64,000 bases of DNA from Sedimentisphaerales bacterium (GCA_963708075.1 OY970194.1:6848001-6912000), one strand, 5' to 3'. Shown: positions 38,215-62,112, counted from the stretch's first letter. A program made the numbers and translations. The notes: generated by a model from the letters alone, not told the origin.

Positions 38215-38490
38215 TTCGCCCCTACGGGGCTTTGAGATAGGATTGACTATCGTACCCACCGTTGAAACGGTGGGCTAGTGTCGATCGCCCCCGTGGGGCG
38301 GACGGGCCGACGCAAGAGGACTGGGGCGAAGTCCAGGCTCGAAGGGCGATAGAGAATAGCCTTCAATTTGACAGGACCACAAAGCTCAGCCATGGCGCAG
38401 TCCAAGCCCGGAGGGCGATAGAGAATAGCCCAGCGATTGATCGCTGGGGAACTGGGGCCGAGGACAAAAGCCAGTCCCGTAAGGGACGAA
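38215..38490. repeat. Cluster of short palindromes (CCC-N4-GGG and CCCACCGTTGAAACGGTGGG type)
   Basis: GCCCTACGGGGC, CCCACCGTTGAAACGGTGGG, GTCCCGTAAGGGAC, and a direct repeat of AGGGCGATAGAGAATAGCC. Confidence 0.6.
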
Positions 38491-39322: not shown

Positions 39323-39881
39323 GATTCGCCCCTCTCAATCACGTTTGATGTTTGATGTTTGATGTTTGATTTCTCAAGTAGGACGGCCTCTCTTACTTCT
39401 CACATCAACCATCATAAATCAACCATGATCATAGCCGCACTATGATCCTTTGTCCATACAGTTGTTCAAAAATCACCAAATTTTTCTGTGCACACGGTAA
39501 CCCCTTTGTGGCACACGGATTAGGAGTCGCTTTGTCCGCAGATTGCACCGATTTTTGCAGATTTCCAGGACGAATCACAAATCCTAATTCGTAAATCGTA
39601 AATCCGATAGGCCACGGAGAGCGCCGAGCCCACGGAGCGGAATATAAGGATGTAGGGTGGGTTCTTAACCCACGCGGATTCTGATCCTCTCACGCAGAGA
39701 CGCCGAGACGCAGAGGGTGGAAGGAGAAGGGAGAAACGCAGGAAGGGAAGCAGGGAAGGAGGTAAGAACTGCCCCATCGGCACTCAGGGATCGGGGATCA
39801 GGGGCCAGAAATGATTGCTCTGCTGAACCCCGGCCCCTGACCCCCGACACCTGCTGGCCATTCCGCCCACAGTAAGGGGTT

Positions 39882-40656
39882 TCAGCCCACTGGCAATGTG
39901 CCATACGCCCCTTTCTTGAACACATAAATCGCCCACCCCAACGTTTCTCGTCCCCACCTCAGATACGCTGTCTTGCTTTCCCGCACTCGTTTCAGCACGG
40001 TTCTCCACATCAGGATCATCCCGATGGCCACTCGCCCAGCTTTCTGCTGCATACCATTGCAACCCTTCATACTTGTCCCAGTCATCTTGGCTGCTTACGA
40101 GTGTGTAGACGGCCTCCAACCCGTGTTCTTGCCCAGCCTTAACATTCTCATCATGTGTTCCGCAGTTGTTCCTTGTCTGGCCGATGGCCTCTAAATACTC
40201 TCTTTCCGGTTCATGCCGCCAGTAGGGTTCACCCACGACGATCCAACTTTCTGGCGCTGCCATCTTGTATAACGCGTTCAACGTCCCTCCATGCCCGCCA
40301 TAAATCCAACTCGCACCGATGCAGGCCACCAGATCAAAACTCTCTAAGGTCTCTGGGACATACTTAGCCCCATCCATCTCTAAGAAGTGGAGTTGAGCAT
40401 CTGGAACGCGTGTTTGGTGCTTTTTGCGGACATCTGCAATGCAGTAAGGAGAGAAATCAACCCCTGTCCCCGTCATTTGTCGGTGCCGCTCTGCGAGCCT
40501 GATGAGAAATTCGCCCTTGCCAGTGGCGATTTCAAGCACGCATGCACCAGGTTTCAGACGCAGAAGCGTGATGAGCTCTTCAAATTTCTCAGAACTCATC
40601 GGGTTGCAGAACACGTGCTCCCGATGCGTGATGTCAAAGAACTTCCACATGTCCAT
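39882..40656 (-). CDS. Class I SAM-dependent methyltransferase, frameshift ~40005
   Basis: RBS GAGGAGG; VLEIATGKGE, GVDFSP, CIGASW; C-terminus YLRWGRETLGWAIY in a second frame; lower GC than flanks. Confidence 0.85.
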
Positions 40657-40751: not shown

Positions 40752-40944
40752 AAACTAGGGACGGACCCTATTTTAGTCGGGGCAATCCGGTTCTTCCAGT
40801 CCGAGTTCTCAAAATCCGACAGCCATCGCACATTTCGGCCTCACCACATCTGTCCGGCCCGTGGGGGCCGGCGACCAACTTGTCGCAGCTTCATCAGAGG
40901 TGCAGAACTGACGGGATTATAGCCCTTGCAGGCATGGTCTGCAA
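40752..40944 (-). ncRNA. Promoter + conserved structured leader + end motif, copy E
   Basis: TTGCAG-N17-TATAAT, then CACCTCTGATGAAGCTGCGACAAGTTGG..GGCCCCCACGGGCCGGACAGATGTGGTGAGGCC, then AAAATAGGGTCCGTCCCTAG. Confidence 0.65.
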
Positions 40945-41035
40945 GAGGGATGTGACAAGTTTGAAGTGTGATGTTTGAAGTGGGAAGTCGGAGGCTCCGC
41001 CACGCCCAGGATTCCATCATTCCAGAGGGAATTCG

Positions 41036-41150
41036 GGGGACACATTACTTATTTGGCAGGAATTAAGTATTGTGTCCCCAGATCCCCGGCAGTGGACATC
41101 TGGGGACACTATACTCAACTCGGGGCGGAGATAGGTGTCCCCGGAATTCC
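41036..41150. repeat. Two miniature inverted-repeat units bounded by GGGGACAC...GTGTCCCC
   Basis: 41036-41079 and 41102-41142; same motif as 62268-62286 and 63000-63029. Confidence 0.7.
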
Positions 41151-41162
41151 GCTGTCATGGCT

Positions 41163-43277
41163 TCAGCTACCATAACCCATCAGTTCGTCATTAGACAACT
41201 CCTTGTTTGGCACAAGTCGGTAATGCTTTTCCTCTTTGATCTTTATTTCTCCCTCGGATAACTCGAATTCGAACATCGCAACTAACTCTCCGTCTACAAA
41301 CTGCGTGGCAATCGGACGGCACTTTATCGCTGGAAATTTCGATTTGCAGATGGCAAGGTCTTGTTCTATCTGGATGATGCCAATCATATCTTTGGCGCCC
41401 TTGGCCTGGATAGGAAAAACAAACTGTTCGCCACTCTTGCTGATACCGATGTACAGTTCGTCGATTTCACCTCCACCCATACCCGGTACAGAGGTCCTTA
41501 GATGGCTCTGGAGCGAATAGCAGGTCACCCCTGTAAAGATGTCTATGAGTCGATTATACCGTACTATCGCCAAAAGGGCCTGCTCGTCGCTCAGTGCATA
41601 CCGCCGGATCACCTCTGGCGTAGCATCAGGTACCTTGATCGTGGACAATCTGGGATTTGGCCTAATCTGGTGCATTGAGGCTTTTGCAAATACGTACTTT
41701 GACCGCCCCACAGATCGTATCACCCACTCCTGGTCTGCATCAAGAAGCTTCCTCATGCTTTCGGGTAACGCACCTCTATACCGGAAGGTGTAGGGAATAT
41801 CGCCAAGATTGAGCGGGACTTCTATGCCCAACTCGCCAGCAGCGTCAACAAACTCCTGCCGCTCGAAGTATACCTCGGTGGCACCCTCCTTGTAGTGCTT
41901 GAAGAACACATGCTCGATGATCTGGGCATAACGAGTGGGGTTTCTCCCTTCCTTTGTCTTCTTTTTCGCCATCTTCTTCTCCCCTGGCCATTCCAGAACC
42001 AAGACTTCTTCACGTAGTTGTTCACCTGTCGCTGTCGATAAACGTGTTCTAAACAAGTCAAGCGAAAGGACTTCGTACCCGATCTCGTGGGCGATATCGG
42101 CCAGAAGCTCTCCCGTGCGGATTAGGACCTGTAGGAATGATGCTTGGTCACCAACAACGTAGGCCAACTTCGCACCAGGTTTCAGGACCCGTTTCATCTG
42201 CTCGAAATGTCGTTTCATTCCGCCAAAGTACAGTTTTGTGACTCGATGGTATAGGCGTTCAAAGCCAGAGTCCTTGTTAAGATCTATGCGCCGCCTCTCG
42301 ATTTCATCTGCAATCGCGTTTATTCTGCGATTGCCTGAGACGGCCAGGTCATCGTCATCACTACGATAGACATTTCGCGTATTGGAACGGAGCAGGCTCT
42401 CTTTAAGCAAACGCAAATCCTGCTTGGATCTTACGAAACCGAGGAGGACACTCTCAAGGCGTGTCGTACGCGTATAGTCCTTCTCATTCGGGTATGGAGG
42501 CGATGTAATCAGTCCATCGACAGAGCCTGGCGGAAGGTCACTAAGCATTTGCCTTGCATCTCCGAGCACACATTTCGCGTCAACGGAGGTAAGAGCCGCA
42601 AACTCTCTGAGGTCGCCAGCCATTTCATTGATCTTGTTCAACCAACTCTCAAGAACAGGCGCGTCAGTCTTCTTGTTGCTCCCTACGCCCACCTCAGGTC
42701 CAAACTTCAGATTGCTCGCAACAAACACTGAAACGAACGCAAATGCTAGCAACTCAATGTTGCGCAGCGATGGATCGCGCCCTCTCTCTATCGCTTCACG
42801 AAGGATGAGACACTTATGGAGTGGGAGCGGACTGATTGAATCCGTAAGAAGCAGATTCTCCTCTTCGCCGGGCAAGGTCCGTCGTTCACCGTTCCATTCC
42901 TCCATTGCGCGGTGCGCGCGTTGAACGACTGCGCCCGCATGCTGAACAAGTCGCTCAGGCTCGACAGACCAGTTTGTTTTCACCTTTGATGCGAAGCATG
43001 CCATAGGATGAGCTTCAACGCCGTAAGCTCTGATCCCATTCTTCTTCGCCTCTACAAGAGTTGTTCCCGTTCCGCAGAACGGGTCCAGAACCAGATGATC
43101 CCGGGTCAGTCCAAAGCGGGAGAAATAGGTCCGCACAAGATGCGGCGGGTAGGACAAGACAAAACGGTACCAATCGTGGAACGCGCGATCCGCGTCTTTC
43201 AACTTGTTGTGACGCAAGTCTTTAGGTGCTAACAATTCTTCCATGAATCCCAGAGCCGTCTGCATTACAGGGTACAC
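41163..43277 (-). CDS. Type II restriction-modification gene: amino-methyltransferase (SPPY, probably m4C) in frame with a PD-(D/E)xK endonuclease
   Basis: DPFCGTGTT, ITSPPY; C-terminal EIDELYIG..FPIQAK; GC lower than flanks. Confidence 0.82.
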   Translation of the reverse strand: MYPVMQTALGFMEELLAPKDLRHNKLKDADRAFHDWYRFVLSYPPHLVRTYFSRFGLTRDHLVLDPFCGTGTTLVEAKKNGIRAYGVEAHPMACFASKVKTNWSVEPERLVQHAGAVVQRAHRAMEEWNGERRTLPGEEENLLLTDSISPLPLHKCLILREAIERGRDPSLRNIELLAFAFVSVFVASNLKFGPEVGVGSNKKTDAPVLESWLNKINEMAGDLREFAALTSVDAKCVLGDARQMLSDLPPGSVDGLITSPPYPNEKDYTRTTRLESVLLGFVRSKQDLRLLKESLLRSNTRNVYRSDDDDLAVSGNRRINAIADEIERRRIDLNKDSGFERLYHRVTKLYFGGMKRHFEQMKRVLKPGAKLAYVVGDQASFLQVLIRTGELLADIAHEIGYEVLSLDLFRTRLSTATGEQLREEVLVLEWPGEKKMAKKKTKEGRNPTRYAQIIEHVFFKHYKEGATEVYFERQEFVDAAGELGIEVPLNLGDIPYTFRYRGALPESMRKLLDADQEWVIRSVGRSKYVFAKASMHQIRPNPRLSTIKVPDATPEVIRRYALSDEQALLAIVRYNRLIDIFTGVTCYSLQSHLRTSVPGMGGGEIDELYIGISKSGEQFVFPIQAKGAKDMIGIIQIEQDLAICKSKFPAIKCRPIATQFVDGELVAMFEFELSEGEIKIKEEKHYRLVPNKELSNDELMGYGS

Positions 43278-43874
43278 CTATCTGTCCCGAATACAACGAG
43301 ACCGGGTCATTGTAGGGCCGTTGCCCCGCTTCCGCAAGCCGCTTACGGGGAATTCCACGCTGACCTCGATTAGTCTCAAGGTGAGGGTCTGGAGCCTTGG
43401 GGCAGGGGAATCAGTGTCCGTGGCTTGGTCTTTTTCCGGTTGTTGGCATGTCAGGCGAGGGTATAATGGCTCATGGCTGGGAGAAATCAGCCGGGGGGGA
43501 AACGGGGTCAGGTCCTGCAATGTGGAATTATTAGGAAGATGTGGTGTGCGGTGCACGCCCTACAGGATTGTGTCTCTCGCGAAGGCGCGAAGGGCAGAGA
43601 GGGTTTCGGGTTGTTAGTTGTTGGTTGCCCATAGGGGAGGTGGGGATATAATGGCTTTGGCTGGGGGCATCAGCAGGCAGAAATCTGCGGCGCCGGGCGA
43701 ATGTGAGGGCGCCTACTGGTGAAGGGCCGAATAATGAGCACGTGTCAGGAGTTGCGGGCCGGTGCAGACGAGGGGACTGGATAGAGGAATTGCATGGACG
43801 AGCTAGGGAAGGTGGAACAACCGGAGGGGCGGGACACGCCGAGCCAAGCTGAGCCGGTGGGCGGCCAGATCCTA

Positions 43875-44049
43875 GGAGGACCGGGGGTCGCACCTGCGCA
43901 CCTACACATTTCACTTTCCGCAAATCTCCGCGTCCTCTTCGGTTCTCACCACAACTGTCCGGCCCGTGGGGGCTGGCTACCAACTTCTCGCAGCTTCATC
44001 AGAGGTGCACAACTGACGGTATTATGGCAGACGCGGGCGGAGGCCGCAA
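43875..44049 (-). ncRNA. Promoter + conserved structured leader + end motif, copy D
   Basis: TTGCGG-N17-CATAAT, conserved core, ends GTGAAATGTGTAGGTGCG(CAGGTGCG)ACCCCCGGTCCTCC. Confidence 0.65.
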
Positions 44050-44059
44050 GCCGAAAGTG

Positions 44060-44700
44060 ATAGGCGATACGTGATAAGTGGCAAGTGTGAAGCGGGAAGC
44101 CGGGGGGGGCGGGAGGCCCGGATTTCGGATTGCGGAATGACCAGCAGGTGTCGGGGGTCAGGGGCCGGGGTTCAGCAGGGCAATCATTTCTGACCCCTGA
44201 TCCCTAATCAGTGTTCATCCGGGTTCATCAGCGGTTTTCATTTTCTCCGTGGCCTCCGTGCCTCCGTGGTGAGAGACTCTGGATTCCCGCCTCCGCGAGA
44301 ATGACATGGAATCCGCGTGGATTGAGAATCCACCCTACACACTACTCTCTGCGTCCCTGCGTCTCCGCGTGAGTTGATCTTTTTTCGCGTAGTTCGCGTC
44401 CCCCGATCGGGTCGAGGGCAAGCCTTCGCGGTCGAGAATACGCGTGGGTTAAGAACCCACCCTACTACTTCGTGGTCTTCGGGCCCTTCGTGGTGGAGAG
44501 CCTGGATTCCTGCCCTCGCGGGAATGGTATGGAATCCGCGTGGGTTGAGAACCCACCCTACATACTGAAAACAGCCGGAATGGTCGTGCGGGGACGCATG
44601 ACCCCCGATCAGGTCGGGGGCAGGCTCTACGAAGAGGCTTATGGATGGCCACCGTATTCCGGCCGTGACTCCCGGTGCGCGGAGGGCGATTGTGCGAAAC
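44060..44700. repeat. Composite intergenic repeat tract (REP-like units, GGATTCCCGC...GGAATGAC palindromes, heptamer runs)
   Basis: Three CGCGTGGRTTRAGAAYCCACCCTAC units plus other units shared with 39520-39866, 47700-48190, 51724-52020 and 55310-55830. Confidence 0.75.
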
Positions 44701-44756
44701 GAAACCAGTCGGCGGGCTTGGCTCAGGACACAACGGGTCAGGATTGGCGTTCCGGA

Positions 44757-46304
44757 TCAGGCCTGAGCGGGTTTCAGCGTCTCCTCGTGGGTGCGGGGGG
44801 AGTGTACGACGTTGATGCCGTACATCTGGCAGAAGGCCTCAACGTCGCGCCGGTGATTGCCGTAGAAGACGACCTGGTGAAATCCCAGGACGTCCCGGCA
44901 ATCCTCAATGCCGTCCATCTGGATCTCGACACTCGTTCGGCAGCCGCCGGCCGGAGGCGTGTTCACGTTGCCGACCACGGTGCCTGTGTCGAGATAGAGT
45001 GCGTCGGGCGTGAAGAATTGCACGAGCGTCACCGGCCGGCCGACCGGCCAGAGGACCTGCGGCGAGACGCCCAGGCTCGATTCGGAGTGGCTGCGGAGAA
45101 TGTACGGGGCGTGCTCTTTTTGGCGATCCAGGCCGTAGATCCGCGTGCCGCTGACGCAGTGCGCCGCGATCAGCACGTTCTTGACGGTCTCGGGCACCGG
45201 ATCATTCATGAATCCGGGCTTGTCGAACAGATAGCTCGTCAGCATGAGCGAGACCGCCGGGGCAACCGCCGCTTCGCAGCCGTAGGTCACCCCCGCATCC
45301 TGGAAGATCGACGCGCCCATGCACGGCGGGGTCGGCACTTTCTTCTGCGTGACCATGCCCAGACAGTCGGTTGTCAGTGCGTTGCAGCTTTCGTTCTTGA
45401 GCAGTTGCTTGGCGGCAATGTACGACCGTGCGGCGTTGAGGCCGTCCTGTTTCGTCGGCTCCACCACCTTCTCGGCCTCGCGGAATCGCTGATGCGCGAC
45501 CCACTTGGCTTCCTCGCTGACCGGCGTCTGGCTGAACATCTCCTCGAAGGTCGCCCGGGGGACATGCTGGAGGCTCACGAGACCGAATTTGTCTTCCTGA
45601 CGCTCGTTGCCGCTTAGAACGAGCATTCTGGTTGCTTCGAGCTGCCGTTTGGCGCGGATCATGCGCAGGGCCTGCTCGATGGCCGGCGTTTCCAGTGATG
45701 AGATGACGTGGACGCCTCTTTGGAAGGCGAGGCTGTTCACGTGTCCCGTGAAGGCGGTGCCGACGGGAGCAAAGACGATCGTGGGCACGCCGGCCTTGGC
45801 AATCTCGCTCGCCATGCCCCAGTACGCGAAATGCTGGAGGGTGACCAGGACGGCGTCGGGTTTCTCGGCCTGCACTTTCTGGACGAACGAGGCGACGGCC
45901 GCATTCTCTTCGAGGGGCTGCGCCTCTTGGATGATTTCGACGCCCACTCGCTGGGCGGCATCGGCGGTTGCCTTGGCGTACCTTGCCCGCTCGCCCTCGA
46001 CATCGTACGACGTACCCGGCCAGCCGAGCCAATAAGGCGGCTTCTGGCGTGCGACCACGCTCATCACCCGGACCTTCGGTCGCGGCCGGAACGAGGCCAG
46101 ACTGATCTCCTCGTTCGATTTGGGCGCGGTGTGGAGTGAACGGGCGAAAGATGTTTCGCCCCTACCGGCACACCCTGTCGCCAGCGCCGCTGTGCAAGCC
46201 GCGGCTGTGCCCAGGAACGCTCGCCGGGACATCGCGCAGCAACTGCATGGATGATTGTGGATAATGGGTCTTTCGCTTGATGTGGGCCGATTCCTTGGCG
46301 ACAT
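44757..46304 (-). CDS. Tat-exported protein, possibly L-fucose/L-arabinose isomerase-like fold
   Basis: SRRAFLG twin-arginine motif; DCL..PC, GCEA, AHC, CRT and GFHQVVFYGNH pattern. Confidence 0.6.
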   Translation of the reverse strand: MSPRNRPTSSERPIIHNHPCSCCAMSRRAFLGTAAACTAALATGCAGRGETSFARSLHTAPKSNEEISLASFRPRPKVRVMSVVARQKPPYWLGWPGTSYDVEGERARYAKATADAAQRVGVEIIQEAQPLEENAAVASFVQKVQAEKPDAVLVTLQHFAYWGMASEIAKAGVPTIVFAPVGTAFTGHVNSLAFQRGVHVISSLETPAIEQALRMIRAKRQLEATRMLVLSGNERQEDKFGLVSLQHVPRATFEEMFSQTPVSEEAKWVAHQRFREAEKVVEPTKQDGLNAARSYIAAKQLLKNESCNALTTDCLGMVTQKKVPTPPCMGASIFQDAGVTYGCEAAVAPAVSLMLTSYLFDKPGFMNDPVPETVKNVLIAAHCVSGTRIYGLDRQKEHAPYILRSHSESSLGVSPQVLWPVGRPVTLVQFFTPDALYLDTGTVVGNVNTPPAGGCRTSVEIQMDGIEDCRDVLGFHQVVFYGNHRRDVEAFCQMYGINVVHSPRTHEETLKPAQA

Positions 46305-46615
46305 AGTTTTTCTCCTTAATGGTCTCCGGGACAGGACAGACTCTACACGGGGGTCGTGGCGCTTTCAAGCCCAAAAGCCCGGTGAGCTGTAGGGGTTTCT
46401 GTGCCTGCCGTGGCGGGTGCCGGCGTCACAATCACGGGCTCGCCCGGAACCATCCCGTGAGCCAATGTCGAATGTACAGACATTGGGCGGAGAAAAGGCG
46501 GGGTGTGCTTTGAATATACACTGTCCGAAGGGCGAGACGATCAGGCCTTTAGATTGCTCGGACGGTGTGCCCGATTCGGGGGCGGAATCGCAGATATGGA
46601 GGTTCTCTGCGTATC

Positions 46616-46813
46616 TCAGGTGCGCGGCTCGCCTTCCTGGACCGCATCCTTCAACTGGTCCCTGAGGTCCGGCGTGTCATCATAACCGTGAACCTTCACC
46701 ATGTGCTCCGCCGCGGTCTCGATGACTTCCTCGTCGGTGTCGGCCGAAATGGCTATGGTGCATTTCTGGGATGGATCCGGGTGCTCTCTACAATCGATGT
46801 ACTTTCTGGTCAT
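46616..46813 (-). CDS. DUF1059 family small protein
   Basis: RBS AGGAGG; RKYIDCRE..C.IAISAD..E...A.EH...HG. Confidence 0.8.
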   Translation of the reverse strand: MTRKYIDCREHPDPSQKCTIAISADTDEEVIETAAEHMVKVHGYDDTPDLRDQLKDAVQEGEPRT

Positions 46814-46927
46814 AGTAACCTCCTTTTTCGCACAGTACTATCACTTCCGGCGGGACCGTTGGAACTGGGGAAAACCTGATATCACATGCTCCAAACCCCG
46901 AGAGGGGGATGCTCCGGCATCGCTCGC

Positions 46928-47404
46928 TCAGGCGGGGGGCCGGGCGATGGGGCCGATGGTGGCGCCGGTGGCACGGATGTAGTCCTGCGGAGCGAGCAGG
47001 ATTTGCGTGCCGCGGATGCCGGCGGAAACGGAAATGATGTCGTAGAGTTGGGCGGTTTCATCGAGGTAAACAGGGTAGTCCTTTTTGCCCGCCAGGGCCG
47101 TCACGCCGCCGCGGATGTAGCCGGTCAGCGCCTGCAACTGGCTGACGGGCGTCAACTCGACCCGGCGATTGCCGGAGAGCCGGGCCAGGGCCTTCAGGTC
47201 CACCTCCGCATCGCCCGGCACGACCGCCATGAGGATGCCGTGCACATCGCCCCTGGCCACCAGGGTCTTGAAGACCTGGTCCGGCGGCAGACCGACCTGG
47301 CCGGCGACTTTGATTGCGCTGAGATCGTCCGGGTCCACCTCGTACTCCCGCAGCTCGTAGTGGATGCCCAGCTTGTCAAGTTGTCGTGTCGCGTTGGTCT
47401 TCAT
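46928..47404 (-). CDS. ybaK: Cys-tRNA(Pro) deacylase
   Basis: KTNA.R.L, QVFKTLV, TGYIRGGVT, VSAGIRG. Confidence 0.92.
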   Translation of the reverse strand: MKTNATRQLDKLGIHYELREYEVDPDDLSAIKVAGQVGLPPDQVFKTLVARGDVHGILMAVVPGDAEVDLKALARLSGNRRVELTPVSQLQALTGYIRGGVTALAGKKDYPVYLDETAQLYDIISVSAGIRGTQILLAPQDYIRATGATIGPIARPPA

Positions 47405-47414
47405 CTCGAAGGAA

Positions 47415-47489
47415 TCGGGGTGACTGGACTTGAACCAGCGACCTTGTGGTCCCAAACCACACGCTCTAGCCAAACTGAGCTACACCCCG
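47415..47489 (-). tRNA. tRNA-Pro(TGG), CCA not encoded
   Basis: CGGGGTG/CACCCCG acceptor stem, TGTGG-TTTGGGA-CCACA anticodon arm, GGTTCAAGTCC T-loop. Confidence 0.95.
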
Positions 47490-48195
47490 TGAATCTTACC
47501 CCAGAGATTATACCCGCCCCCCGGCCCCGACGCAACACGCCAATTGCCGCCGCCCCCCAAAATTCCGCCGCCCGCACGTGGCAAGGATGCGGCCGCCATT
47601 CGGTGGCGGATTCGGGGCTCCGCGTAGGACGAGCGTCCTCGCTCGTCCTCTTTCGGCTGTGGCCTTGTACAGGATCCAGTCCGTTGCAAGGGCCCGGACT
47701 GGTCGTGCGGGGACGCACGGCCTACGAAGAGGCTCGCCGACTGCCACCGTATTCCGACCACACCCCGTGGCAAGGGCGTCCGGCCCTTGTCTGCAACGGC
47801 AAGAGGGGCGCCGCCGGAGCTTGCCAAGCATAGAGGCCACTCCGCCGCCGGGAAGAGCTCTGCGCGGCCTCCGACCGCAACCAAATCAACTCGCGCAGAG
47901 ACGCCGAGGCGCAGAGATAATGCAACCGCCGATAAACGCGGATGCCGACCCTGTCATTCCTGCGGAAGCAGGAATCCATCTTCTGGGAACTGACAACCCA
48001 CAACTGACAACTGACCATTCTGCCACAGAGGACACGGAGCCCGCAGAGGAAGACTCCAAGAACCGGCAACTGACAACTGTCCTCAATCCGCAATCCCCAG
48101 TCCCTTACTGCCTCCGACTTCTCACTTCGAACATCAAACTTCACACTTGACACTTCCTCCCAATCATAAATCATAAATCATAAATCCCAACGCTC

Positions 48196-48408
48196 TTGCC
48201 TTCTCCGCCTGCCTTCGCCATAATACCGGTAGTTTTGCACCTCTGAGAAAGCTGCGACAAGTTGGTTGGCGGTCCCCATGGGCCGGACTGATGTGGTGAG
48301 GCCGATATGAGTGGGACGGCCATAACGGCGTCAAGGCCGAGGGATAAATGAGACTGAGGAAGGCGGAAATAGGTGACTGTCCCTAGATTCCACCTCTAGA
48401 TTCCACCT
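48196..48408 (+). ncRNA. Promoter + conserved structured leader + end motif, copy C (no cargo gene follows)
   Basis: TTGCCT-N17-CATAAT, conserved core, then AAATAGGTGACTGTCCCTAG and duplicated CTAGATTCCACCT. Confidence 0.6.
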
Positions 48409-48448
48409 CCGTTCTTCCTCATGCTTCGACCAGCACCCGGAATTTGCC

Positions 48449-49822
48449 TCAGCCCTCGGCGACTGCCAGCTTCGCGTCGGGAATCGCTGAAGCGTCGATG
48501 TCCCCATTCCACAGGTACCTGCGCGTTTCGAGGACCACGACGCCCGACAGCGCGAACAGAGAAATAACGTTCGGAATGACCATCAGGGCATTGGCGATGT
48601 CGGCGAACGACCATACCGCTCGCAGCGTCGACAGCGAGCCGACCATCACGGCCGCCACCCAGAGCAATCGATAGGGTTTTACGACGCGCGAACCCAACAG
48701 GTATTCCGCTGCCTTCTCGCCATAGTACGACCACCCGAGGATCGTTGAAAAGACGAAGGTGAGGAGGCTCACGCTCAAGACGATGGGCCCGACAAACGAC
48801 ATGCCTTCGAACGCCACCTTTGTCAGCGCGGCCCCGTTATGCCCCTGTATCCACTGGCCGGAATTGACGATCACCAGGCCCGTCAGGGCGCAGACAACGA
48901 CCGTATCCCAGAACGTGCCGGTCGAGGACACGAGGGCCTGCCTCACCGGATTCTTCGTCTGGGCGGCGGCGGCGACGATCGGCGCGCTGCCGAGCCCCGA
49001 CTCGTTGCTGAAGAGCCCCCGGGCGATCCCGTACCGCGCCGCCTCCCTGACCGTTGTCCCGAGAAATCCTCCGACGGCCGCCTGTCCCGTGAAGGCCCCT
49101 GAGACGATCAGGCGGATGGTCTCGGGAATCGTTTCGTAGCGCATAGCCAGTAGAATGATCGAACCGATGACGAAGAAGATGGCCATGAATGGCACGAGCC
49201 ATTCGCACCAGGCGGCGATGGATTTGATGCCGCCGAGAATGACCAGGGCGGTGAGCGCCGTGATAACGATCCCTGTGATCCACTGCGGCACGCCGAAGGT
49301 CTCGCGGACCATGGCGGCCACCGAGTTCGCCTGCACCATGTTCCCGATGCCGAAGGCGGCGATCGTCGTGAGCCCCGCGAAGACGAGTCCGAGCCAGCGG
49401 CAGTGCATCCCGCGTTCGAGCACGTACATCGGGCCGCCCGCCATGGCTCCCGATTTCGTCGTGATGCGGTACTTGACCGACAGCACCGCTTCCGCGTACT
49501 TGGTCGCGATCCCGAAGACGCCCGTAAGCCAGAGCCAGAGGACCGCGCCCGGCCCGCCCGATGCTACGGCCGTGGCGACGCCGACGATATTGCCGGTGCC
49601 GATCGTCGCCGCCAGCGCCGTCGTCAGGGCGCCGAACTGACTGATGTCGCCCTGGCCCTCCTGCGAACGCTTCACGGACAGCCGGATCGCTTTGCCCACA
49701 TACCTCTGAATGAAACGCAGCCGAATCGTGAGGAAGATATGAGTCCCGAACAGGAGGATGAGCATGGGGGGACCCCACACGAGATCGCTTAACCACGCGA
49801 GTAACTTATCAACGGCCTCCAT
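48449..49822 (-). CDS. Alanine/glycine:cation symporter (AGCS)
   Basis: IGTGNIVGVA, GGPGAVLW, GGPMY, RGLFSNESGLGS motifs. Confidence 0.95.
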   Translation of the reverse strand: MEAVDKLLAWLSDLVWGPPMLILLFGTHIFLTIRLRFIQRYVGKAIRLSVKRSQEGQGDISQFGALTTALAATIGTGNIVGVATAVASGGPGAVLWLWLTGVFGIATKYAEAVLSVKYRITTKSGAMAGGPMYVLERGMHCRWLGLVFAGLTTIAAFGIGNMVQANSVAAMVRETFGVPQWITGIVITALTALVILGGIKSIAAWCEWLVPFMAIFFVIGSIILLAMRYETIPETIRLIVSGAFTGQAAVGGFLGTTVREAARYGIARGLFSNESGLGSAPIVAAAAQTKNPVRQALVSSTGTFWDTVVVCALTGLVIVNSGQWIQGHNGAALTKVAFEGMSFVGPIVLSVSLLTFVFSTILGWSYYGEKAAEYLLGSRVVKPYRLLWVAAVMVGSLSTLRAVWSFADIANALMVIPNVISLFALSGVVVLETRRYLWNGDIDASAIPDAKLAVAEG

Positions 49823-50150
49823 GCCTTGGCTCCTTTGCCGAGATTCCAAATGACAGAACGAATGAGAAGATTCTATCAAAGGCAAGCCATCGGTCAATGA
49901 TCTGCATCAATGGGCTAAGGTGCCGCATCATGCGGCGTTCCGTCATCGCCCGGCCCCGCCGTGCCCCCAACCGGCAACTGCCAACGGATTATCAACCGCG
50001 GATAAACGCAGGTGAACGCCGATTTTCAACCTGTAATTGCCTTTTCATTCCGCATTCATCATCGCCTCCGACTTCCCACTTCACACTTCAAACCACTTAT
50101 CACCTATCACTTCTCACTTGCGGGCCCCGCCTGACAGGCACACACGCTGC

Positions 50151-51593
50151 TCAAGTATACGCAGCGCCGATCCGATCGCCGGTTCTTCTCACCCAGTCCT
50201 TCAGAAGTCGCCTGTGCCTGTCCAGGACGTTCTCCATCCCCGGGGCTTCGGCAAGATTCTTCATCTCACCCGGGTCGTCCTTCAGATCCACAAGCCACTC
50301 ACGCCGTTCACCGGAATCATAGATGCTGTACTTGAACCGATCCGTCCGCAGCATCCTGCCGTTCTGGCTCTCCGAGACGACGAAATCACGCCATCCCTCC
50401 ACGGGCCTGTTTTGCGTCAGCGGTCGCAGACTCCTGCCGGGGAGTCCCGCAGGCGTCTCTATCCCCGCGAAGTCACACAGGGTGGGAAGCAGGTCGAGAC
50501 CGTTGGAAACCAGGTGCAGGTCGTCAACCACTCCCCTGGGGATCCCGCCGCCGAGACTCATTACGAATGGAACCCGCACGGCTTCTTCATAGAGCACCGA
50601 CTTGTGCTCCAGCCTGTGTGATGCGTCCATATCGCCGTGATCGCTGGTGAAGACGATGAGGGTATTGTCTTCGAGGCCCGCCTCCCGGACGGCGTCGAGG
50701 AGTATCCCGATCTGCTCGTCCACCATCTCGGTCAACCGGCAGTAGGCCCAGCGGTGTAATCGCCACTGGTCTTCGCTCCAGTTCGCACGGACATGCGCTC
50801 GAAACGCGCTCGCATCGACGTACTTGTGCGTTATGCATCCCGGCTCATCCTCCGGGATCCCGTAGTTTGACGGCAGCGGCGGACAGTTGTTCCGCACGAA
50901 ATCGGCCAGGTCTCCAGCTCCCCTCACCCGATCCAGCACGGCCTCACAGGTCTTGGAACCCACAGTGCCGGCTGGGGGCTGTCCATTGGCACGCGAGTGG
51001 GCGTTGATCGCCATGTAACAGATATCGTGCGGATTCATGAACGACGCGAAGAGCAGGAACGGGCTCGCATGGGGACTCTTGATGAATTTCGCACAGGCAT
51101 CCGCCAATCCCTGGCGCGAATCGTTGGTGAGATTCCGATATCCGATATTCTGCAGGTTCTCCATCCTGGCCGGCAGGTGCACCTTGCCGCCATACACGGT
51201 CTCGTAGCCCGCCTTCCGGAAGAGGGAGCCAAGCGATTGCTGCACCATGATCTCGGTCACGGCGGCCCGTTCTATGTCGCCGTTATGGCTCATTCCGATG
51301 GCACTGGGCATGAGCCCCGTCTGCAGGCTGAACCGGCTTGGCACGCAGACCGGGTTAGAGGCATAGGTCTTTTCGAATCGGATGCCTGAGGCGGCGAGCC
51401 TGTCCATGGCAGGGGTTTTAAGCCACTTGTTGCCCGTGCAGCTCATCATGCCGGCGTGTTGCTGGTCGGTCATGATGAACAGGATGTTGGGCCGGCGTTG
51501 TCCCGGTTGGCCGTGCGCGGTCATCGGGGTCCGCGCGAACGTCAGCCCACCGGCCGCCGTCATCGCCGCGGCAATAAACTCTCGTCTCCTCAT
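50151..51593 (-). CDS. Sulfatase with Tat-like signal
   Basis: RRREF, PNILFIMTDQ, CVPSR..LQTG, GKVH, SDHGD. Confidence 0.93.
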   Translation of the reverse strand: MRRREFIAAAMTAAGGLTFARTPMTAHGQPGQRRPNILFIMTDQQHAGMMSCTGNKWLKTPAMDRLAASGIRFEKTYASNPVCVPSRFSLQTGLMPSAIGMSHNGDIERAAVTEIMVQQSLGSLFRKAGYETVYGGKVHLPARMENLQNIGYRNLTNDSRQGLADACAKFIKSPHASPFLLFASFMNPHDICYMAINAHSRANGQPPAGTVGSKTCEAVLDRVRGAGDLADFVRNNCPPLPSNYGIPEDEPGCITHKYVDASAFRAHVRANWSEDQWRLHRWAYCRLTEMVDEQIGILLDAVREAGLEDNTLIVFTSDHGDMDASHRLEHKSVLYEEAVRVPFVMSLGGGIPRGVVDDLHLVSNGLDLLPTLCDFAGIETPAGLPGRSLRPLTQNRPVEGWRDFVVSESQNGRMLRTDRFKYSIYDSGERREWLVDLKDDPGEMKNLAEAPGMENVLDRHRRLLKDWVRRTGDRIGAAYT

Positions 51594-52028
51594 AAGTCGT
51601 GATCCTCCTGGCCTGCGACAATCAAAACCACCTGCTCCAACGGTTCTCTGTTCAGTAGTGATCCTACCAGCGATTTGGCTCACAATCAAGGCCGGCCATT
51701 CTCCCAATGCCCGGAACCTCACGCCGCCCCCTGATCCCTCTGTCCACCGTCAACTGACAACTGAGAACTGACAACAACTGATCATCTCGCGCAGAGACGC
51801 CGAGGCGCAGAGGATAGTACGTAGGGTGGATTCTCAACCCACGCGGATTCTGATTGTTCGCCACGGAGAGCACCGAGAACACGGAGAACAGAGCATCAAA
51901 GGCGATGGGGGAGGAACGTAGGAAGGGAAGAAGGTAAGGACTGCCCAATCCGCATTCCGCAATCACACGGCCCCGCCGTGCCTTCTCATTCCGCATTCCG
52001 CAATCCGCACTCCGCAATCGGAAGCCTC

Positions 52029-52194
52029 TTGCCGGCCCCGCCCGCGTCTGCCATAATACCGGCAGTTTCACACCTCTGATGAAGCTGCGAGAAGTTGGTC
52101 GGTGGCCCCCACGGGCCGGACAGATGTGGTGAGGCCAAAGAGGACGCGGAGATTTGCGGAAAGTGAAATGTGTAGGTGCGACCCCCGGTCCTCC
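52029..52194 (+). ncRNA. Promoter + conserved structured leader + end motif, copy B
   Basis: TTGCCG-N17-CATAAT, conserved core, ends GTGAAATGTGTAGGTGCGACCCCCGGTCCTCC. Confidence 0.65.
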
Positions 52195-52407
52195 CCGCTA
52201 GCGCTCTGAGTGCCGAGGGCTTTGCCGAGGCCTTTCGACGGTTCGCATCTGATGAGGACGCTTCGCGTGTCCCTCCGGGGACTTTGGCGTCTGTCTTGTG
52301 GAGCGTCGAACGGCTGGGCCGGAGAACCATCACTTTCGACGGGTCACAGTAGCAGGGTGGGCTGTGTCCATCGCTCTTGTCTGAGTACCGGCTACCGCCT
52401 TTTTCCC

Positions 52408-52573
52408 TTGCGGGCCCCGCCTGCTCGTGCCATAATACCGCCAGTTCTGCACCTCTGATGAAGCTGCGAGAAGTTGGTTGCGGGCCCCCACGGGCCGGAC
52501 AGATGTAGTGAGGCCGAAGATGACGTGGGGATTTGCGGAAAGTGAAATGTGTAGGTGCGACCCCCGGTCCTCC
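52408..52573 (+). ncRNA. Promoter + conserved structured leader + end motif, copy A, 17 nt before the next ATG
   Basis: TTGCGG-N17-CATAAT, conserved core, same end motif as copy B. Confidence 0.65.
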
Positions 52574-52590: not shown

Positions 52591-53514
52591 ATGAGCGACA
52601 CAGAACCGAACCAGAACGAGACCACCCTGGGCACGAAGCCTAAGCCGTTCGTCTTTGTGCTGATGCCGTTTGCGAAGGAGTTTGATGATACCTACCAGCT
52701 TGGCATTAAGGCAGCTTGTGAGAAGGCAGGAGCATATGCACAGAGGCTTGACGAGCAGCTATTTAACGAGAGCATGCTGCAACGCATTTACAACCAGATC
52801 GCCAAAGCTGATGTCATTGTGGCAGATATGACTGGCAGGAATCCCAACGTCTTCTACGAAGTAGGGTATGCTCATGCTCTCGGTAAGGTCGTGATCCTGC
52901 TGACGCAGAAGAACGAGGATATACCTTTTGATCTGAAACATTACCGGCACATCGTCTATGAGAATGTGGTTAGTTTACAACCACAACTTGAGACGGCCGT
53001 TCAATGGGGAGTGAAGCAGGCCAGCGGGGAGGCACTGCCTAAACCCCCGATTGCGGTCTATCATGAAGATAGGCCTTTGATTGACAAACCAACTATTGTG
53101 TTCACGCTATACCATCCTAAGACACAGTTGGACCGGTCACGCATTCGATTCTCTTTGACGTACGGCAATATTGATGAAGTAAATACGGTGCGGTGTAGAA
53201 TGGCCATATGGACCTCCAAGCTGTTCCGAACCGCTCAATGGTACGACAACCTGGGTCCGCCGCCTGTGGATGGAGGACCAACAATATATCCAATACTACA
53301 TCCTACTCAACGGAAGATTTTCACTTGTCCAGTGGTCATGTCCTTGCTACCGGAAGAATGGCGATCAGATGTGTTAGTGCTTGGAATGCGAACCGATGAC
53401 CTGAAACATGGTGAGCAGTATTTCACCGAAGATATGGTACTCCGCGTCTCCACACAATCCGGCAGCTATAGCTATCCCTTCACAGCAAGGATCGAGCAGG
53501 ATAAGAAACAATGA
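52591..53514 (+). CDS. Nucleoside 2-deoxyribosyltransferase/TIR-like domain protein with unknown C-terminal domain
   Basis: FVLMPF, ADVIVADMTGRNPNVFYEVGYAHALGK, IPFDL motifs. Confidence 0.8.
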   Translation: MSDTEPNQNETTLGTKPKPFVFVLMPFAKEFDDTYQLGIKAACEKAGAYAQRLDEQLFNESMLQRIYNQIAKADVIVADMTGRNPNVFYEVGYAHALGKVVILLTQKNEDIPFDLKHYRHIVYENVVSLQPQLETAVQWGVKQASGEALPKPPIAVYHEDRPLIDKPTIVFTLYHPKTQLDRSRIRFSLTYGNIDEVNTVRCRMAIWTSKLFRTAQWYDNLGPPPVDGGPTIYPILHPTQRKIFTCPVVMSLLPEEWRSDVLVLGMRTDDLKHGEQYFTEDMVLRVSTQSGSYSYPFTARIEQDKKQ

Positions 53515-54410
53515 TTGCCACAAAGACCGTACTGGTGTTGGGAGCAGGAGCGAGTGCTCCGTATGGATTCCCTACAGGTGGGGCATTGGTCGAACTAATC
53601 GCGAATGATTTTGCATCACCACGATTTGCGAAAGCCGAAAAAGTCATGCCGGAAGGATACCGAATCTTGACAGGCAGACTAAGACAGGCACAACACAATT
53701 CCATTGATGAGTTCCTTGAAAACCATCCATCATTTGCGGACATTGGGCGACAAGCCATAGCACTTCACTTGCTCCCGGCGGAATCCCATTCAGGAGCCAC
53801 CCTGATGGATTTGACCAAGAAGGATCACTGGTACAGATACCTGAAAGGGCAGTTGGGCCCTCTTGGTACATTCGGAAAGAATCAACTCAGGATCATCTCC
53901 TTCAATTACGACAGATCAGTGGAGCACTACCTGTACGAGACTTCGCGGACAAGCGATGAGCGGATCAATGATCAACAGTGTGTGGAGATATTGAAGCAAC
54001 TCCCTGTACTTCATGTCTATGGCAACTTGGGGCCATTACCTTGGCAGTCGCGTATCGGGACCATACCCTATGGTGGTAGTACCCCAGAACCATGTGCAGA
54101 GGAGATTCGACAAGCAGCCATGAACATCAAGATTCTACATCAGGGAACTGATGACGAAGTGCAACAGAATTTTCGGATTGCTCAAGAATGGCTGAAATGG
54201 GCTGAGAGGATCGTCGTTCTGGGCTTCGGATTTCACCACGCCAATGTTGAACGACTCGCACTCACTGAGACGTTTCAAGGCAAAAGAGAAGTTGTAGGTA
54301 CATGTAAAGACTTGGCTCTGACGAACAGGGCGGCTGCTTTACATGTTACTTTCCCCCGACCTGCTGCCGATTGCTACACACTACTGCACGATCATGTTGT
54401 TCTGTTATAG
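53511..54410 (+). CDS. SIR2-like domain protein
   Basis: KTVLVLGAGAS..YGFP, ISFNYDRS, LHVYG, VLGFGFH..N; ATGA overlap with the upstream gene. Confidence 0.85.
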   Translation: MIATKTVLVLGAGASAPYGFPTGGALVELIANDFASPRFAKAEKVMPEGYRILTGRLRQAQHNSIDEFLENHPSFADIGRQAIALHLLPAESHSGATLMDLTKKDHWYRYLKGQLGPLGTFGKNQLRIISFNYDRSVEHYLYETSRTSDERINDQQCVEILKQLPVLHVYGNLGPLPWQSRIGTIPYGGSTPEPCAEEIRQAAMNIKILHQGTDDEVQQNFRIAQEWLKWAERIVVLGFGFHHANVERLALTETFQGKREVVGTCKDLALTNRAAALHVTFPRPAADCYTLLHDHVVLL

Positions 54411-54776
54411 GTGCGAGGGGACAATGGGGGGAATAGAGGGTCACACCTACGGGGGAATAGAGGGTCACACCTACACATTTCACATTCCCGTCATTTCGGA
54501 GGGTAGCCAAATGTATAGAAGGGACCTTCGCGGGGTCACATTGCGAATTAGGAATGATTCCGGAATCGGCTCGCGAACACCCTGGAGTTCGCTGTCCGTC
54601 GTCACTCGGTTTCAGGTTTCTGTGCGAACGGCGCGACTTGCCGGTACAACCGGGAAGGGACGGCAAGTCACGATGGGACAAGAGGCAAGTAGTTGCACAA
54701 TCCGAGTCATTTCTCTATAATGGGCAGGGTGCACGAGGATCAGTCAATGTCAACGTCGAGCGACAAGGGAAACGCC

Positions 54777-58495: not shown

Positions 58496-59443
58496 CTATT
58501 GCAGCAGGGCCTTGAGCTGGCTTTGGAGTTGGCGGTCGGTCTGCAAACGCTGCTCGGCCCGGCGGCAGGCGTGCGAAACCGCTGACTCGCCTACACCGAA
58601 ATGCTCGGCAATCTCGCCCAGGCGAAATCGACCCTGCCGCCACAGCAGGTATATCAGCACCTCCCGCATGGGTCGCTCCCGGTGCCGGATCGGCCGAAGT
58701 AGCGACGCATACTCCTGCGAATCGATCCTCAGCCTGCGGCGGTATTCCGCCAGATGCTCCTGGATCGTCCCATGCGATTGCAGGGCTCGCAACTGGGGCT
58801 TGTCTGGCTCTCGCAGGCCTTGCACACGCTGACGCAGCTCCTCCACCACGGCCTCGCTGCCCAGCACCAGGCCATAGTGCAGGCTCGAAAACAGCTCATC
58901 CGCCCGTTCATCGTATCGCCGCACCGCCTGGCGAAAGCCCCTGGCGTCGAGATCCAATTGCTCGTACACCAGCCGTGCATCAAACCACGCCGGCCCGCCC
59001 CGGCCATACGCCAACGCCCGGTAGCTGCTCCAGCGGTAATCCTCCAGTCGTTCCGCGAGCCTGGCCCGCAGGGGATTGCGATGGATATACAGCAGCAATC
59101 GCTGGAGATACTCGGTCTCTTGAATGAGAAAGCTCTTGAATCTCCCCTGGAACAGGTGCCCGCTTCGCCGATGTCGGCGATTATGCCATGAGCCGTACGC
59201 CACTTGCAGCCACTGCATCGCCGCCGAGAGGTTCGCTTCTTGGGTCTTGACCAGAAGATGATAGTGGTTGCCCATGAGCACATAGGCGTAGATGTCGAGA
59301 GAGAACCGTTCCGAGCACCGGCCCAGTCGGTCAAGAAAGTCCTCGTAGTCGTGCTCATCGCGAAAGATCGCTCGCCGCTCATTGCCGCGATTGAGCACGT
59401 GATAGAATGTATCTTCCTGATCGATGCGTAACGGCCGTGCCAT
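58496..59443 (-). CDS. Y1 HUH transposase (IS200-like/RAYT-like) with C-terminal DnaA-like HTH
   Basis: MARPLR, YHVLNRGN, NHYHLL (HUH), GHLFQGRF, YIHRNP, YRWSSY; LGEIAEHFG..ESAVSH. Confidence 0.9.
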   Translation of the reverse strand: MARPLRIDQEDTFYHVLNRGNERRAIFRDEHDYEDFLDRLGRCSERFSLDIYAYVLMGNHYHLLVKTQEANLSAAMQWLQVAYGSWHNRRHRRSGHLFQGRFKSFLIQETEYLQRLLLYIHRNPLRARLAERLEDYRWSSYRALAYGRGGPAWFDARLVYEQLDLDARGFRQAVRRYDERADELFSSLHYGLVLGSEAVVEELRQRVQGLREPDKPQLRALQSHGTIQEHLAEYRRRLRIDSQEYASLLRPIRHRERPMREVLIYLLWRQGRFRLGEIAEHFGVGESAVSHACRRAEQRLQTDRQLQSQLKALLQ

Positions 59444-60084: not shown

Positions 60085-60114
60085 GTCCAACGATCCTCGC
60101 AATTTCAACTGCTA

Positions 60115-60890: not shown

Positions 60891-60899
60891 GATCATAGA

Positions 60900-62035
60900 G
60901 GGTCACACCTACACATTTCACATTCATCGCAGTGCTTTAAGGCTCTGTTCGATCTGCGACCAGGCTTCCAGGAGTTTCTTGTCCCGACGAAGCGTCTGCT
61001 CGGCGCGGTCGCGGGCCATCGTCAGGCCACTCAGTGAGATGTCGAAGCGTTTCGCCAACGCGGTCAAGCTCTCTCCCGCTCGGCTGTAGCGGCACACGCC
61101 GTAGATCAGTAGTTGCCTCGCACGGCGGTCCGAGCCGCGCAGCGTCAGCAGGCTCTCCGGCCGGACTCCGCAGTGGCGCCCCACACAGCCGGCCACCGCG
61201 TCAAAAGGAATCGACTGCCGGGCCCGCTCGAACGCCGGCTGCTCTCGCCGATCGGCGTTTCGCGTCAGCACGTAGGTCCGCCGAATGTGGTCAAGGAAGG
61301 TCTCCGTCCCCAGGATCGTCTGGCCCTCCAGTCGGGCCAGCGGGTTGTCCAACTCCCGCAGCAGGCCTTCCTCGACGTACTGGCCATATCGCCGCATCTG
61401 AACGCGTCGGCTCGCCCCCCAGTCCGACAGAAGCGGCCCGGGATCAAACCACTTCGGGCCCGGCGACAAGCCGATGCAGGCTGCATAGCTCGACCAGCCA
61501 AACGCACGCAGCGCCCGCCGTCTGGCCGACACGGACGCCGGCCGCAGTGCCTTGGTCCGGACCGGATTGAGATGGATGTAGCGTGAGACCTCGCCGCCGT
61601 AGGCGTCATTCTCGACCAGATGGGCCGTGAAGCGGCCCTGGAAGACGTGCCCGCGGCTGCGCCGACGGCGGTTGAGGCTGATCGTGAAGCTCGTCAGAAG
61701 GCTCTGCATGAAGCGGCTGAGATTCGCCTGCTCGGTCCGCAGGTACAGATGGAAGTGATTCGGCATGCAGCAGTAACACAACAGCCCCACCTCGAACTGC
61801 CGGCTGAACTGGCCCAGCCGCTCCAGGAACAGCTCATAGTCTCTCGCCTCCGTGAACACGGCCTGCCGCCCATTGCCCCGATTCATCACATGATAGCAGG
61901 CACCCGCATACTCGATCCGCAACGGACGAGCCATACACAGTCTCCTTTCAGACAAGCAGATCTGCAACGTCCGCCAGAATACACCGGACCCGTGGGCCTC
62001 GTCAAGAGCAAATATGAAATGTGTAGGTGTGACCC
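60900..62035 (-). mobile_element. Y1-HUH transposase element bounded by perfect 21-bp inverted repeats
   Basis: GGGTCACACCTACACATTTCA at 60900-60920 and TGAAATGTGTAGGTGTGACCC at 62015-62035. Confidence 0.8.
60924..61934 (-). CDS. Second Y1 HUH transposase (IS200-like/RAYT-like) with C-terminal DnaA-like HTH
   Basis: MARPLR, YHVMNRGN, NHFHL, GHVFQGRF, YIHLNP, WSSY. Confidence 0.9.
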   Translation of the reverse strand: MARPLRIEYAGACYHVMNRGNGRQAVFTEARDYELFLERLGQFSRQFEVGLLCYCCMPNHFHLYLRTEQANLSRFMQSLLTSFTISLNRRRRSRGHVFQGRFTAHLVENDAYGGEVSRYIHLNPVRTKALRPASVSARRRALRAFGWSSYAACIGLSPGPKWFDPGPLLSDWGASRRVQMRRYGQYVEEGLLRELDNPLARLEGQTILGTETFLDHIRRTYVLTRNADRREQPAFERARQSIPFDAVAGCVGRHCGVRPESLLTLRGSDRRARQLLIYGVCRYSRAGESLTALAKRFDISLSGLTMARDRAEQTLRRDKKLLEAWSQIEQSLKALR

Positions 62036-62112
62036 CGTATTCTCTGGAGGACTGGCCCTCCAGGGTCGGTCGGCGAGGGCAGGCGGCAAAGGCGGCAAAT
62101 CGCCCCGGTTTC

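What the first reader, a model, noticed from the sequence alone, without database searches (positions are those of the whole stretch)
40752..52573. Five copies of a promoter-driven ~85-nt structured RNA fused to transposase end motifs
Seen: copies at 40752-40944(-), 43875-44049(-), 48196-48408(+), 52029-52194(+) and 52408-52573(+). Each has TTGCNN-N17-(C/T)ATAAT with exactly 17 nt of spacer despite spacer divergence, then CACCTCTGATGAAGCTGCGA(G/C)AAGTTGGT-N5-6-GCCCCCACGGGCCGGACAGATGTGGTGAG. By eye it folds as a three-way junction: CACC-TCTG with CAGA..GGTG, AGCT with AGTT, GGCCC with GGGCC (a U-G wobble variant in copy C). The 6 nt after GTTGGT differ in every copy. The loop is GCGAGA in the three copies ending GTAGGTGCGACCCCC and GCGACA in the two ending GTCCCTAG. 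I do not recognise the RNA family. Inference: a regulatory 5' leader for captured genes, or an RNA cofactor/guide of the HUH enzymes.
Basis: partly seen in the sequence, partly recalled or inferred. Interest (0 to 1): 0.85.

Follow-up and report, generated by a model that had tools for sequence, protein, structure and literature searches.

The report
Reused promoter ending at transposase repeats
The five copies are real, but they belong to a genus-wide repeated promoter-plus-leader unit that ends at the recognition repeat of a little-studied DNA transposase and sits in front of foreign, often anti-phage genes; the proposed three-armed RNA fold is not supported.

Summary
The five copies are confirmed. 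They are part of a ~160-195 bp dispersed unit: 35 matches in this genome, present in 21 of 23 other genomes of the genus, 1 of 150 elsewhere in the phylum. The unit is a sigma70-type promoter (17-nt spacer in 110 of 126 copies), an ~85-nt leader, often an RBS-like motif and ATG, then a terminal repeat (TIR) of TIRYT-type HUH transposases. The window copies end in three different TIRs, each matching a full transposase gene in this genome. Downstream genes are unrelated, lower in GC and often defence-type. The three-way junction fails: no covarying pair in 124 copies (tRNA control 13 pairs), mean folding z -0.1. Only the GCCC/GGGC hairpin has weak support. The variable 6-mer is not a guide. Two leader blocks are still conserved in sequence (4.8% vs 21% divergence in the promoter spacer), which I cannot yet explain. 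Best reading: a portable expression platform at transposase junctions, working like an integron Pc-attI site. Transcription and gene capture are inferred, not shown. The scan noted similar promoter-leader-hairpin units before on other DNA.

The parts
40758..40944 (-). Copy A: -35 at 40944, -10 ends 40916, core 1 40902-40874, hairpin 40869-40856, GGTGAG ends 40840, ATG with 21-codon ORF, TIR 40773-40758 (type flanking the TIRYT gene at C1:4612359)
43883..44049 (-). Copy B: -35 at 44049, -10 ends 44021, core 1 44007-43979, hairpin 43973-43961, no ATG, TIR 43912-43883 with internal duplication (type flanking the TIRYT gene at 60924-61934)
48196..48383 (+). Copy C: promoter 48196-48224, core 1 48238-48266, hairpin 48271-48284, ATG with 14-codon ORF, TIR 48367-48383 (type flanking the TIRYT gene at C1:4636885), followed by a short tandem duplication to 48408. 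No cargo: it faces the 3' end of the alanine symporter gene
52029..52186 (+). Copy D: promoter 52029-52057, core 1 52071-52099, hairpin 52104-52117, no ATG, TIR 52165-52186; in tandem with copy E
52408..52565 (+). Copy E: promoter 52408-52436, core 1 52450-52478, hairpin 52483-52496, ATG with 24-codon ORF running through the TIR (52544-52565); cargo starts 26 nt after the TIR
39784..40656 (-). SAM-dependent methyltransferase gene downstream of copy A (53.8% GC)
41163..43277 (-). Fused type II DNA methyltransferase-restriction endonuclease, about 600 bp downstream of copy B, itself between TIR-type ends (50.9% GC)
52591..53514 (+). Cargo of D/E: nucleoside-deoxyribosyltransferase-like / TIR-like effector domain protein
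53511..54410 (+). Cargo of D/E: SIR2-like protein (the two genes together are 49.2% GC)
54445..54487 (-). Oppositely oriented TIR of the same type as D/E, closing the cargo, with a 24-bp junction duplication
58496..59443 (-). Y1 HUH transposase (HYH, YIHRNP, weak DnaA-like C-terminal match), TIR upstream of its promoter
60895..62040 (-). TIRtron: Y1 HUH transposase gene (60924-61934) between inverted TIRs of the type ending copies B, D, E; a 99.6% identical 1150-bp copy lies at C1:478624-479773

Best explanation
The element is a portable expression platform tied to TIRYT-type HUH transposase ends. Shown: a repeated unit of promoter, leader, RBS-like GGTGAG plus ATG (in about half the copies) and a TIR, placed at non-orthologous, variable sites in front of unrelated genes. 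Inferred steps: (1) housekeeping sigma70 starts a transcript a few bases after the -10 box; (2) the transcript runs through the leader and the TIR into whatever DNA lies beyond; (3) the leader loads ribosomes, giving coupling or in-frame fusion to the cargo, as ORF-11 does in class 1 integrons; (4) a TIRYT enzyme nicks single-stranded DNA at the TIR hairpin and joins new DNA there, so cargo and end type are exchanged while selection keeps the promoter. The leader is constrained mainly in primary sequence, with one small hairpin, not as a three-way junction.
For: Spacer of 17 nt in 77 of 93 model-found copies and 33 of 33 pattern-found copies, where the -35 was not part of the pattern. Parsimony changes per site: TTG 3.7, -10 7.0, spacer 22.3, leader 13.8. 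Same promoter type genome-wide, peak at 17 nt (66 sites vs 6-12 at 14, 15, 18-20 and 33 at 16). A TIR matrix built only from 21 ends of TIRYT genes hits 55 of 124 copies just downstream, 41 of them at +72 to +75, against 0 of 119 control windows. Three TIR types in the window each match a full TIRYT gene. One TIRtron has a 99.6% identical second copy bounded by its TIRs. Short duplications at 9 of 50 junctions vs 1 of 50 controls. Downstream genes cluster at most in pairs among 116 flanks; 52 of 93 scanned had Pfam hits and 26 of those are defence-type domains. Downstream DNA is under 55% GC in 51% of 107 copies vs 5.5% of random windows of this genome. The site holding C, D, E is empty (231-641 bp) in 11 of 16 relatives. 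The unit's ATG starts long ORFs directly in 5 of 60 copies that have it, including NYN and prepilin-type genes.
Against: No transcription or reporter data. No capture or excision event is shown, and no precise empty site for the unit itself was found. No left TIR: opposite-orientation TIR upstream in 2 of 125 and same-orientation in 6 of 125, so how the unit spreads is open. 69 of 124 copies lack a hit to that TIR matrix (some carry another TIR type, others have lost it). 22 of 119 copies face an opposite-strand ORF and copy C has no cargo. Copy A's TIR hairpin scores as a weak terminator. B and D have no ATG. Most TIRs lack the unit (12 of 39 and about 4 of 29 sites carry it), so defence-rich cargo may be a property of TIRs in general; no background gene set was scanned. 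GC baseline came from this genome only.
Confidence: 0.6

Rival explanations
1. The leader is a sequence-specific regulatory element on top of the promoter: either a DNA operator for a host repressor, or a loading site for an antitermination factor that lets RNA polymerase pass through AT-rich foreign genes. This refines rather than excludes the best explanation.
For: Two leader blocks diverge less than the spacer: 22 of 459 vs 38 of 180 sites in the nine-copy subfamily, and in 12 of 12 clades for each block. The last hairpin has weak arm-swap support. The genome has a second NusG-family gene.
Against: No dyad symmetry or strong periodic repeat (best 7 of 9). Core 1 has no intergenic regulon outside the unit (1 intergenic of 9 other hits). 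No link between the NusG paralogue and the unit was found. Model-based retrieval favours conserved positions.
Confidence: 0.2
2. A selfish, mostly functionless MITE-like passenger of TIRYT enzymes. It piles up in variable spacers; the promoter is inherited from a master copy and any effect on neighbours is incidental.
For: Copies with no cargo, tandem copies and 5'-truncated copies exist. It sits among other repeat mosaics (heptamer arrays in 14 of 28 copies vs 0.7% at random). TIR repeat families of this kind are described (PMC3733652).
Against: Neutral decay predicts even divergence; instead promoter boxes and leader blocks change 2- to 6-fold less than the spacer. It lacks paired terminal repeats.
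Confidence: 0.12
3. A structured RNA (three-way junction), acting as a riboswitch-like leader or as a guide or cofactor of the HUH enzymes.
For: The outer stem CACC/GGTG can pair in 88% of cells. The last hairpin pairs better with its own arm than with swapped arms (p 0.007-0.045 at 48-58 representatives). Invariant stems give covariation tests little power.
Against: 0 pairs at E<=1 in 124 and in 112 copies, against 13 pairs at E<=0.05 in 37 tRNAs. Of 56 changes that break the outer stem 3 are rescued, 2.8 expected; tRNA control 285 of 296. Arm-swap test, which tolerates register shifts, gives p 0.07-0.84 for the outer and middle stems. Mean z -0.10. The 6-mer does not match junctions.
Confidence: 0.08

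Closest known systems
TIRtrons / TIRYT and their TIR repeat families (Di Nocera et al. 2013, PMC3733652; TnpA-Y1 subclass 2.1 in Quentin et al., 10.1101/279083)
   Same: Ends fit the GGGG[AT][CG]A[CG] motif at 6-7 of 8 positions, flank Y1 HUH genes with the Y---NP signature, and are dispersed as a repeat family.
   Different: The passages read describe TIRs alone, in dimers or clusters. Here one TIR is the 3' end of a longer unit with an outward promoter and leader, no partner TIR, and interchangeable TIR types.
Putative mobile promoters (Nijveen, Matus-Garcia, van Passel 2012, PMC3575422)
   Same: Similar upstream sequence reused before unrelated genes; function and mobility unknown.
   Different: Those are mostly pairs with no known mobiliser. 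This family has up to 35 copies per genome, a mean identity of 64%, and a candidate enzyme and junction site.
Class 1 integron Pc-attI1 with ORF-11 (review PMC8876359)
   Same: Promoter, RBS and short ORF leading into a recombination-type site, followed by captured genes; the peptide sequence is not what matters.
   Different: No tyrosine recombinase, attI or attC. The platform is multi-copy and dispersed, the candidate enzyme is an HUH nuclease, and capture is not demonstrated.
PeSL cassettes of T4-type phages (Arbiol et al. 2010, PMC2839356)
   Same: Repeated sigma70 promoter, stem-loop, SD and start codon heading variable genes, with shuffling between copies.
   Different: PeSLs are phage elements whose stem-loops terminate transcription and which shuffle by recombination. 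This unit is chromosomal, has an 85-nt leader and ends at a transposase repeat.

Membership tests
TIRtron / TIR repeat family | End motif GGGG[AT][CG]A[CG] | tested here: met
   Reverse complements of the window ends match 7 of 8 (B, C, D, E) and 6 of 8 (A) positions (motif).
TIRtron / TIR repeat family | The same repeat flanks a Y1 HUH gene in the genome | tested here: met
   Three TIR types, three cognate genes, all PF01797.
TIRtron / TIR repeat family | Cognate enzymes carry a C-terminal HTH (Bac_DnaA_C, HTH_23, HTH_28) | tested here: inconclusive
   No Pfam HTH hit at E<=0.01 in 4 of 4; a weak DnaA C-terminal match in 1 of 4, the one at 58496-59443. The two 235-aa proteins are short.
TIRtron / TIR repeat family | The element is bounded by two inverted TIRs and encodes the transposase | tested here: not met
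   The unit has no transposase and an inverted upstream TIR in 2 of 125 copies. It carries a TIR but is not itself a TIRtron or a classical MITE.
TIRtron / TIR repeat family | Cleavage or mobilisation by the enzyme | not testable with these tools
   Needs in vitro assay; only indirect signs.
Putative mobile promoter | At least 80% identity over 50 nt upstream of non-paralogous genes | tested here: met
   Window copies are 78-87% identical over 110 nt and precede unrelated genes.
Putative mobile promoter | Promoter activity | not testable with these tools
   Conservation pattern only.
Integron platform | Adjacent IntI tyrosine recombinase, attI and attC sites | tested here: inconclusive
   No integrase among the 13 window proteins scanned; no attC search was run. 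The ends match HUH-gene repeats instead.
Known Rfam RNA (riboswitch, ribozyme, sRNA) | Score at or near a family's gathering threshold | tested here: not met
   No match over the copies (E<=10; 10 loci, E<=1).
Conserved structured RNA (three-way junction) | Compensatory base changes in all three stems | tested here: not met
   only the last hairpin shows a weak signal.

The most novel reading that the evidence does not exclude
TIRYT HUH transposases and this unit together form a dispersed, integron-like gene-capture and expression system: the enzyme joins promoterless defence genes at the TIR hairpin, and the unit supplies promoter, ribosome loading and a conserved leader signal (antitermination or stress-responsive operator) that drives them.
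Probability: 0.25. Interest if true: 0.82.

Novelty: new variant of a known kind. Interest (0 to 1): 0.45.

Why it matters
TIRYT proteins are a large HUH subclass with no shown function; only two held papers name them. A defined unit that places a conserved promoter directly before the enzyme's end repeat, with three enzyme-repeat pairs in one complete genome, makes a capture-and-express role directly testable. It also offers a candidate mobilisation route for 'mobile promoters' and an explanation for how imported defence genes get expressed. It does not add a new structured RNA class.

Tried and rejected
Rfam: no hit on the copies. Alternative helices (5' hairpin, core 1 with the last arm): no support in the arm-swap test. 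Leader peptide: length and frame not conserved. Origin of the 3' part from a TIRYT gene end: no match at E<3.9 among the gene ends tested. A single orthologous master locus: no flank cluster larger than three loci upstream or two downstream. Promoter as the end of some other element: 28 of 34 promoter-matrix hits belong to this unit. Shared regulon for core 1: not found. RNA data: no RNA holder listed. Plasmids: no match. Viral contigs: one pattern match, in coding-like DNA without the unit. Single copies on short contigs of a Zixibacteria and a Chloroflexota MAG could be transfer or mis-binning and are not used as evidence. Literature searches for the unit or a TIRYT capture system found nothing relevant; RNA motif lists held only in supplements, and the figure and supplements of PMC3733652 listing TIR sequences, were not seen.

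Full report
Observation. The five copies align as described, with exact part coordinates. An HMM from them finds 37 hits in the 7.5-Mb genome at E<0.1 and none in the reversed genome. A sequence-only model gives 35 matches here, matches in 21 of 23 other genomes of the genus, 0 of 40 sampled from the class and 1 of 150 sampled from the phylum. A gapped pattern gave 32 metagenome loci. The host is probably a Phycisphaerae planctomycete: two of four pattern hits in named genomes carry that label. The five window copies, with two more in this genome and two in one relative, form one subfamily, 71-88% identical pairwise.

Promoter. The spacer is 17 nt in 77 of 93 model-found copies (7 at 16 or 18, 9 with a box missing) and in 33 of 33 pattern-found copies, for which the -35 was not part of the query. 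Parsimony changes per site are 3.7 for TTG, 7.0 for the -10, 22.3 for the spacer, 13.8 for the leader and 26.2 after the ATG (model-found copies only). The same promoter type peaks at 17 nt genome-wide and precedes the tRNA-Pro gene in relatives. That it fires is inference; no RNA holder was listed.

RNA structure. No Rfam family matches. Single copies fold no better than shuffles (mean z -0.10 over 124 copies). A tree-aware covariation test finds 0 pairs at E<=1 on two alignments, while the same code finds 13 pairs at E<=0.05 in 37 tRNAs. Changes that break the outer stem are rescued in 3 of 56 cases, 2.8 expected. Because register shifts can hide covariation, I also swapped arms between copies (eight tests). 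Only the GCCC/GGGC hairpin prefers its own arm (p 0.001 at n=105, 0.007-0.045 at n=48-58, 0.03-0.10 at n=19-26). A spacer control reached p 0.02 at n=105, so the first value is inflated by kinship. The outer and middle stems give p 0.07-0.84. So one small hairpin is plausible and the junction is not. Stems made of near-invariant bases cannot be fully excluded.

What remains unexplained. Two leader blocks are conserved as sequence: 22 of 459 sites differ from the subfamily consensus against 38 of 180 in the spacer, and both blocks are below the spacer in 12 of 12 clades (copies are not independent, and model retrieval favours conserved sites). The second block includes GGTGAG, which can pair with the 16S tail found, and an ATG follows at fixed distance in 60 of 126 copies. 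The first block has no explanation yet.

Ends. Each window copy ends in a repeat that also flanks a full Y1 HUH gene: C matches the gene at C1:4636885, A the gene at C1:4612359, and B, D, E the gene at 60924-61934. These fit the TIRYT/TIRtron description (PMC3733652, passages; 10.1101/279083, passages). A matrix built only from 21 TIRYT gene ends hits 55 of 124 copies just downstream and 0 of 119 control windows. It hits upstream in only 6 (same strand) and 2 (opposite) of 125, so the unit is one-ended. The TIRtron in the window has a 99.6% identical second copy bounded by its repeats, a sign of recent movement. Junctions carry short duplications in 9 of 50 cases against 1 of 50. Most TIRs have no unit: 12 of 39 sites for one matrix and about 4 of 29 for the other type.

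Cargo and sites. Of 129 copies, 94 have a co-oriented ORF next, 22 an opposite one, 3 none and 10 too little flank (crude longest-ORF call). I scanned 93 proteins (87 of those 94, plus 6 behind truncated copies): 52 had Pfam hits, and 26 of these are TIR, SIR2, ThsB, restriction-modification, FRG, DUF4238, PIN, SLATT, STAND and similar domains (the label 'defence-type' is my recalled grouping, and no background set was scanned). PADLOC hit 21 of 30 hand-picked proteins, including the window's methyltransferase-endonuclease fusion, TIR-like effector and SIR2. In 11 of 16 relatives the tRNA-Pro and the HTH gene at 56321 are 231-641 bp apart, one has a different 5.8-kb insert, four were uninformative, and none carries the unit there. 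Here 8.8 kb lies between them, holding C, D and E. So the unit is not an orthologous RNA gene; it arrives with accessory DNA.

Mechanism. Most likely a portable promoter and ribosome-loading leader that reads across a TIRYT end into DNA joined at that end. The anatomy, the conservation pattern, the enzyme-repeat matches and the cargo diversity are shown. Transcription, translational coupling, nicking and capture are inferred. The closest working analogy is Pc-attI1 with ORF-11 (PMC8876359, passages); the closest descriptive classes are putative mobile promoters (PMC3575422, main text) and PeSL cassettes (PMC2839356, abstract and one section). It is not a TIRtron or MITE (no paired ends) and was not shown to be an integron.

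Novelty. Searches for the unit or for TIRYT-linked capture found nothing in print in the held library. The scan's own notes hold no look-alike sequence but several similar architectures in other genomes; these are unchecked and are not counted as support. Verdict: new variant of a known kind, interest 0.45.

Noticed in passing
window 51724-52021 and 55320-55669: Inverted mosaic arms (164 bp at 90%, plus 47 bp at 77%) made of heptamer and REP-like repeats enclose copies D, E and their cargo, like a composite element.
   Followed up: partly
window 43445-43500 and 43619-43680 (+): Two copies of a second promoter-like repeat (TATAATGGCT...TGGCTGGG) point against copy B and away from the restriction-modification gene.
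   Followed up: no
window 41036-41143: Two tiny gene-less units, each a pair of inverted TIR-type ends 41-45 bp long, just downstream of the restriction-modification gene.
   Followed up: no
window 59545-63667: Rhs-type core end followed by orphan C-terminal and small immunity-like ORFs, separated by TIRs and two TIRYT genes.
   Followed up: no
window 62113-62255: 96% identical copy of the first 143 bp of the TIRYT gene region at 59373-59515, truncated; other truncated copies lie at C1:481587 and C1:2287657.
   Followed up: partly
window 38405-38448 (-): Acido-Lenti-1 Rfam match, 41.7 bits.
   Followed up: no
window 38582-39322 (-): HNH_3-AP2 endonuclease gene among heptamer repeats; a homologue sits next to tRNA-Pro in one relative.
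   Followed up: partly
L158 (G000 C1:4637603), L115, L140: The same prepilin-type gene follows a TIRYT right end in this genome, is fused to the unit's ATG in one relative and follows a shortened unit in another.
   Followed up: partly
G000 C1:5609950-5610220: A full copy is followed, 8 nt after its TIR, by a 5'-truncated second copy with its own TIR.
   Followed up: partly
G000 C1:1275260-1275514: Second NusG-family gene; no link to the unit found.
   Followed up: partly
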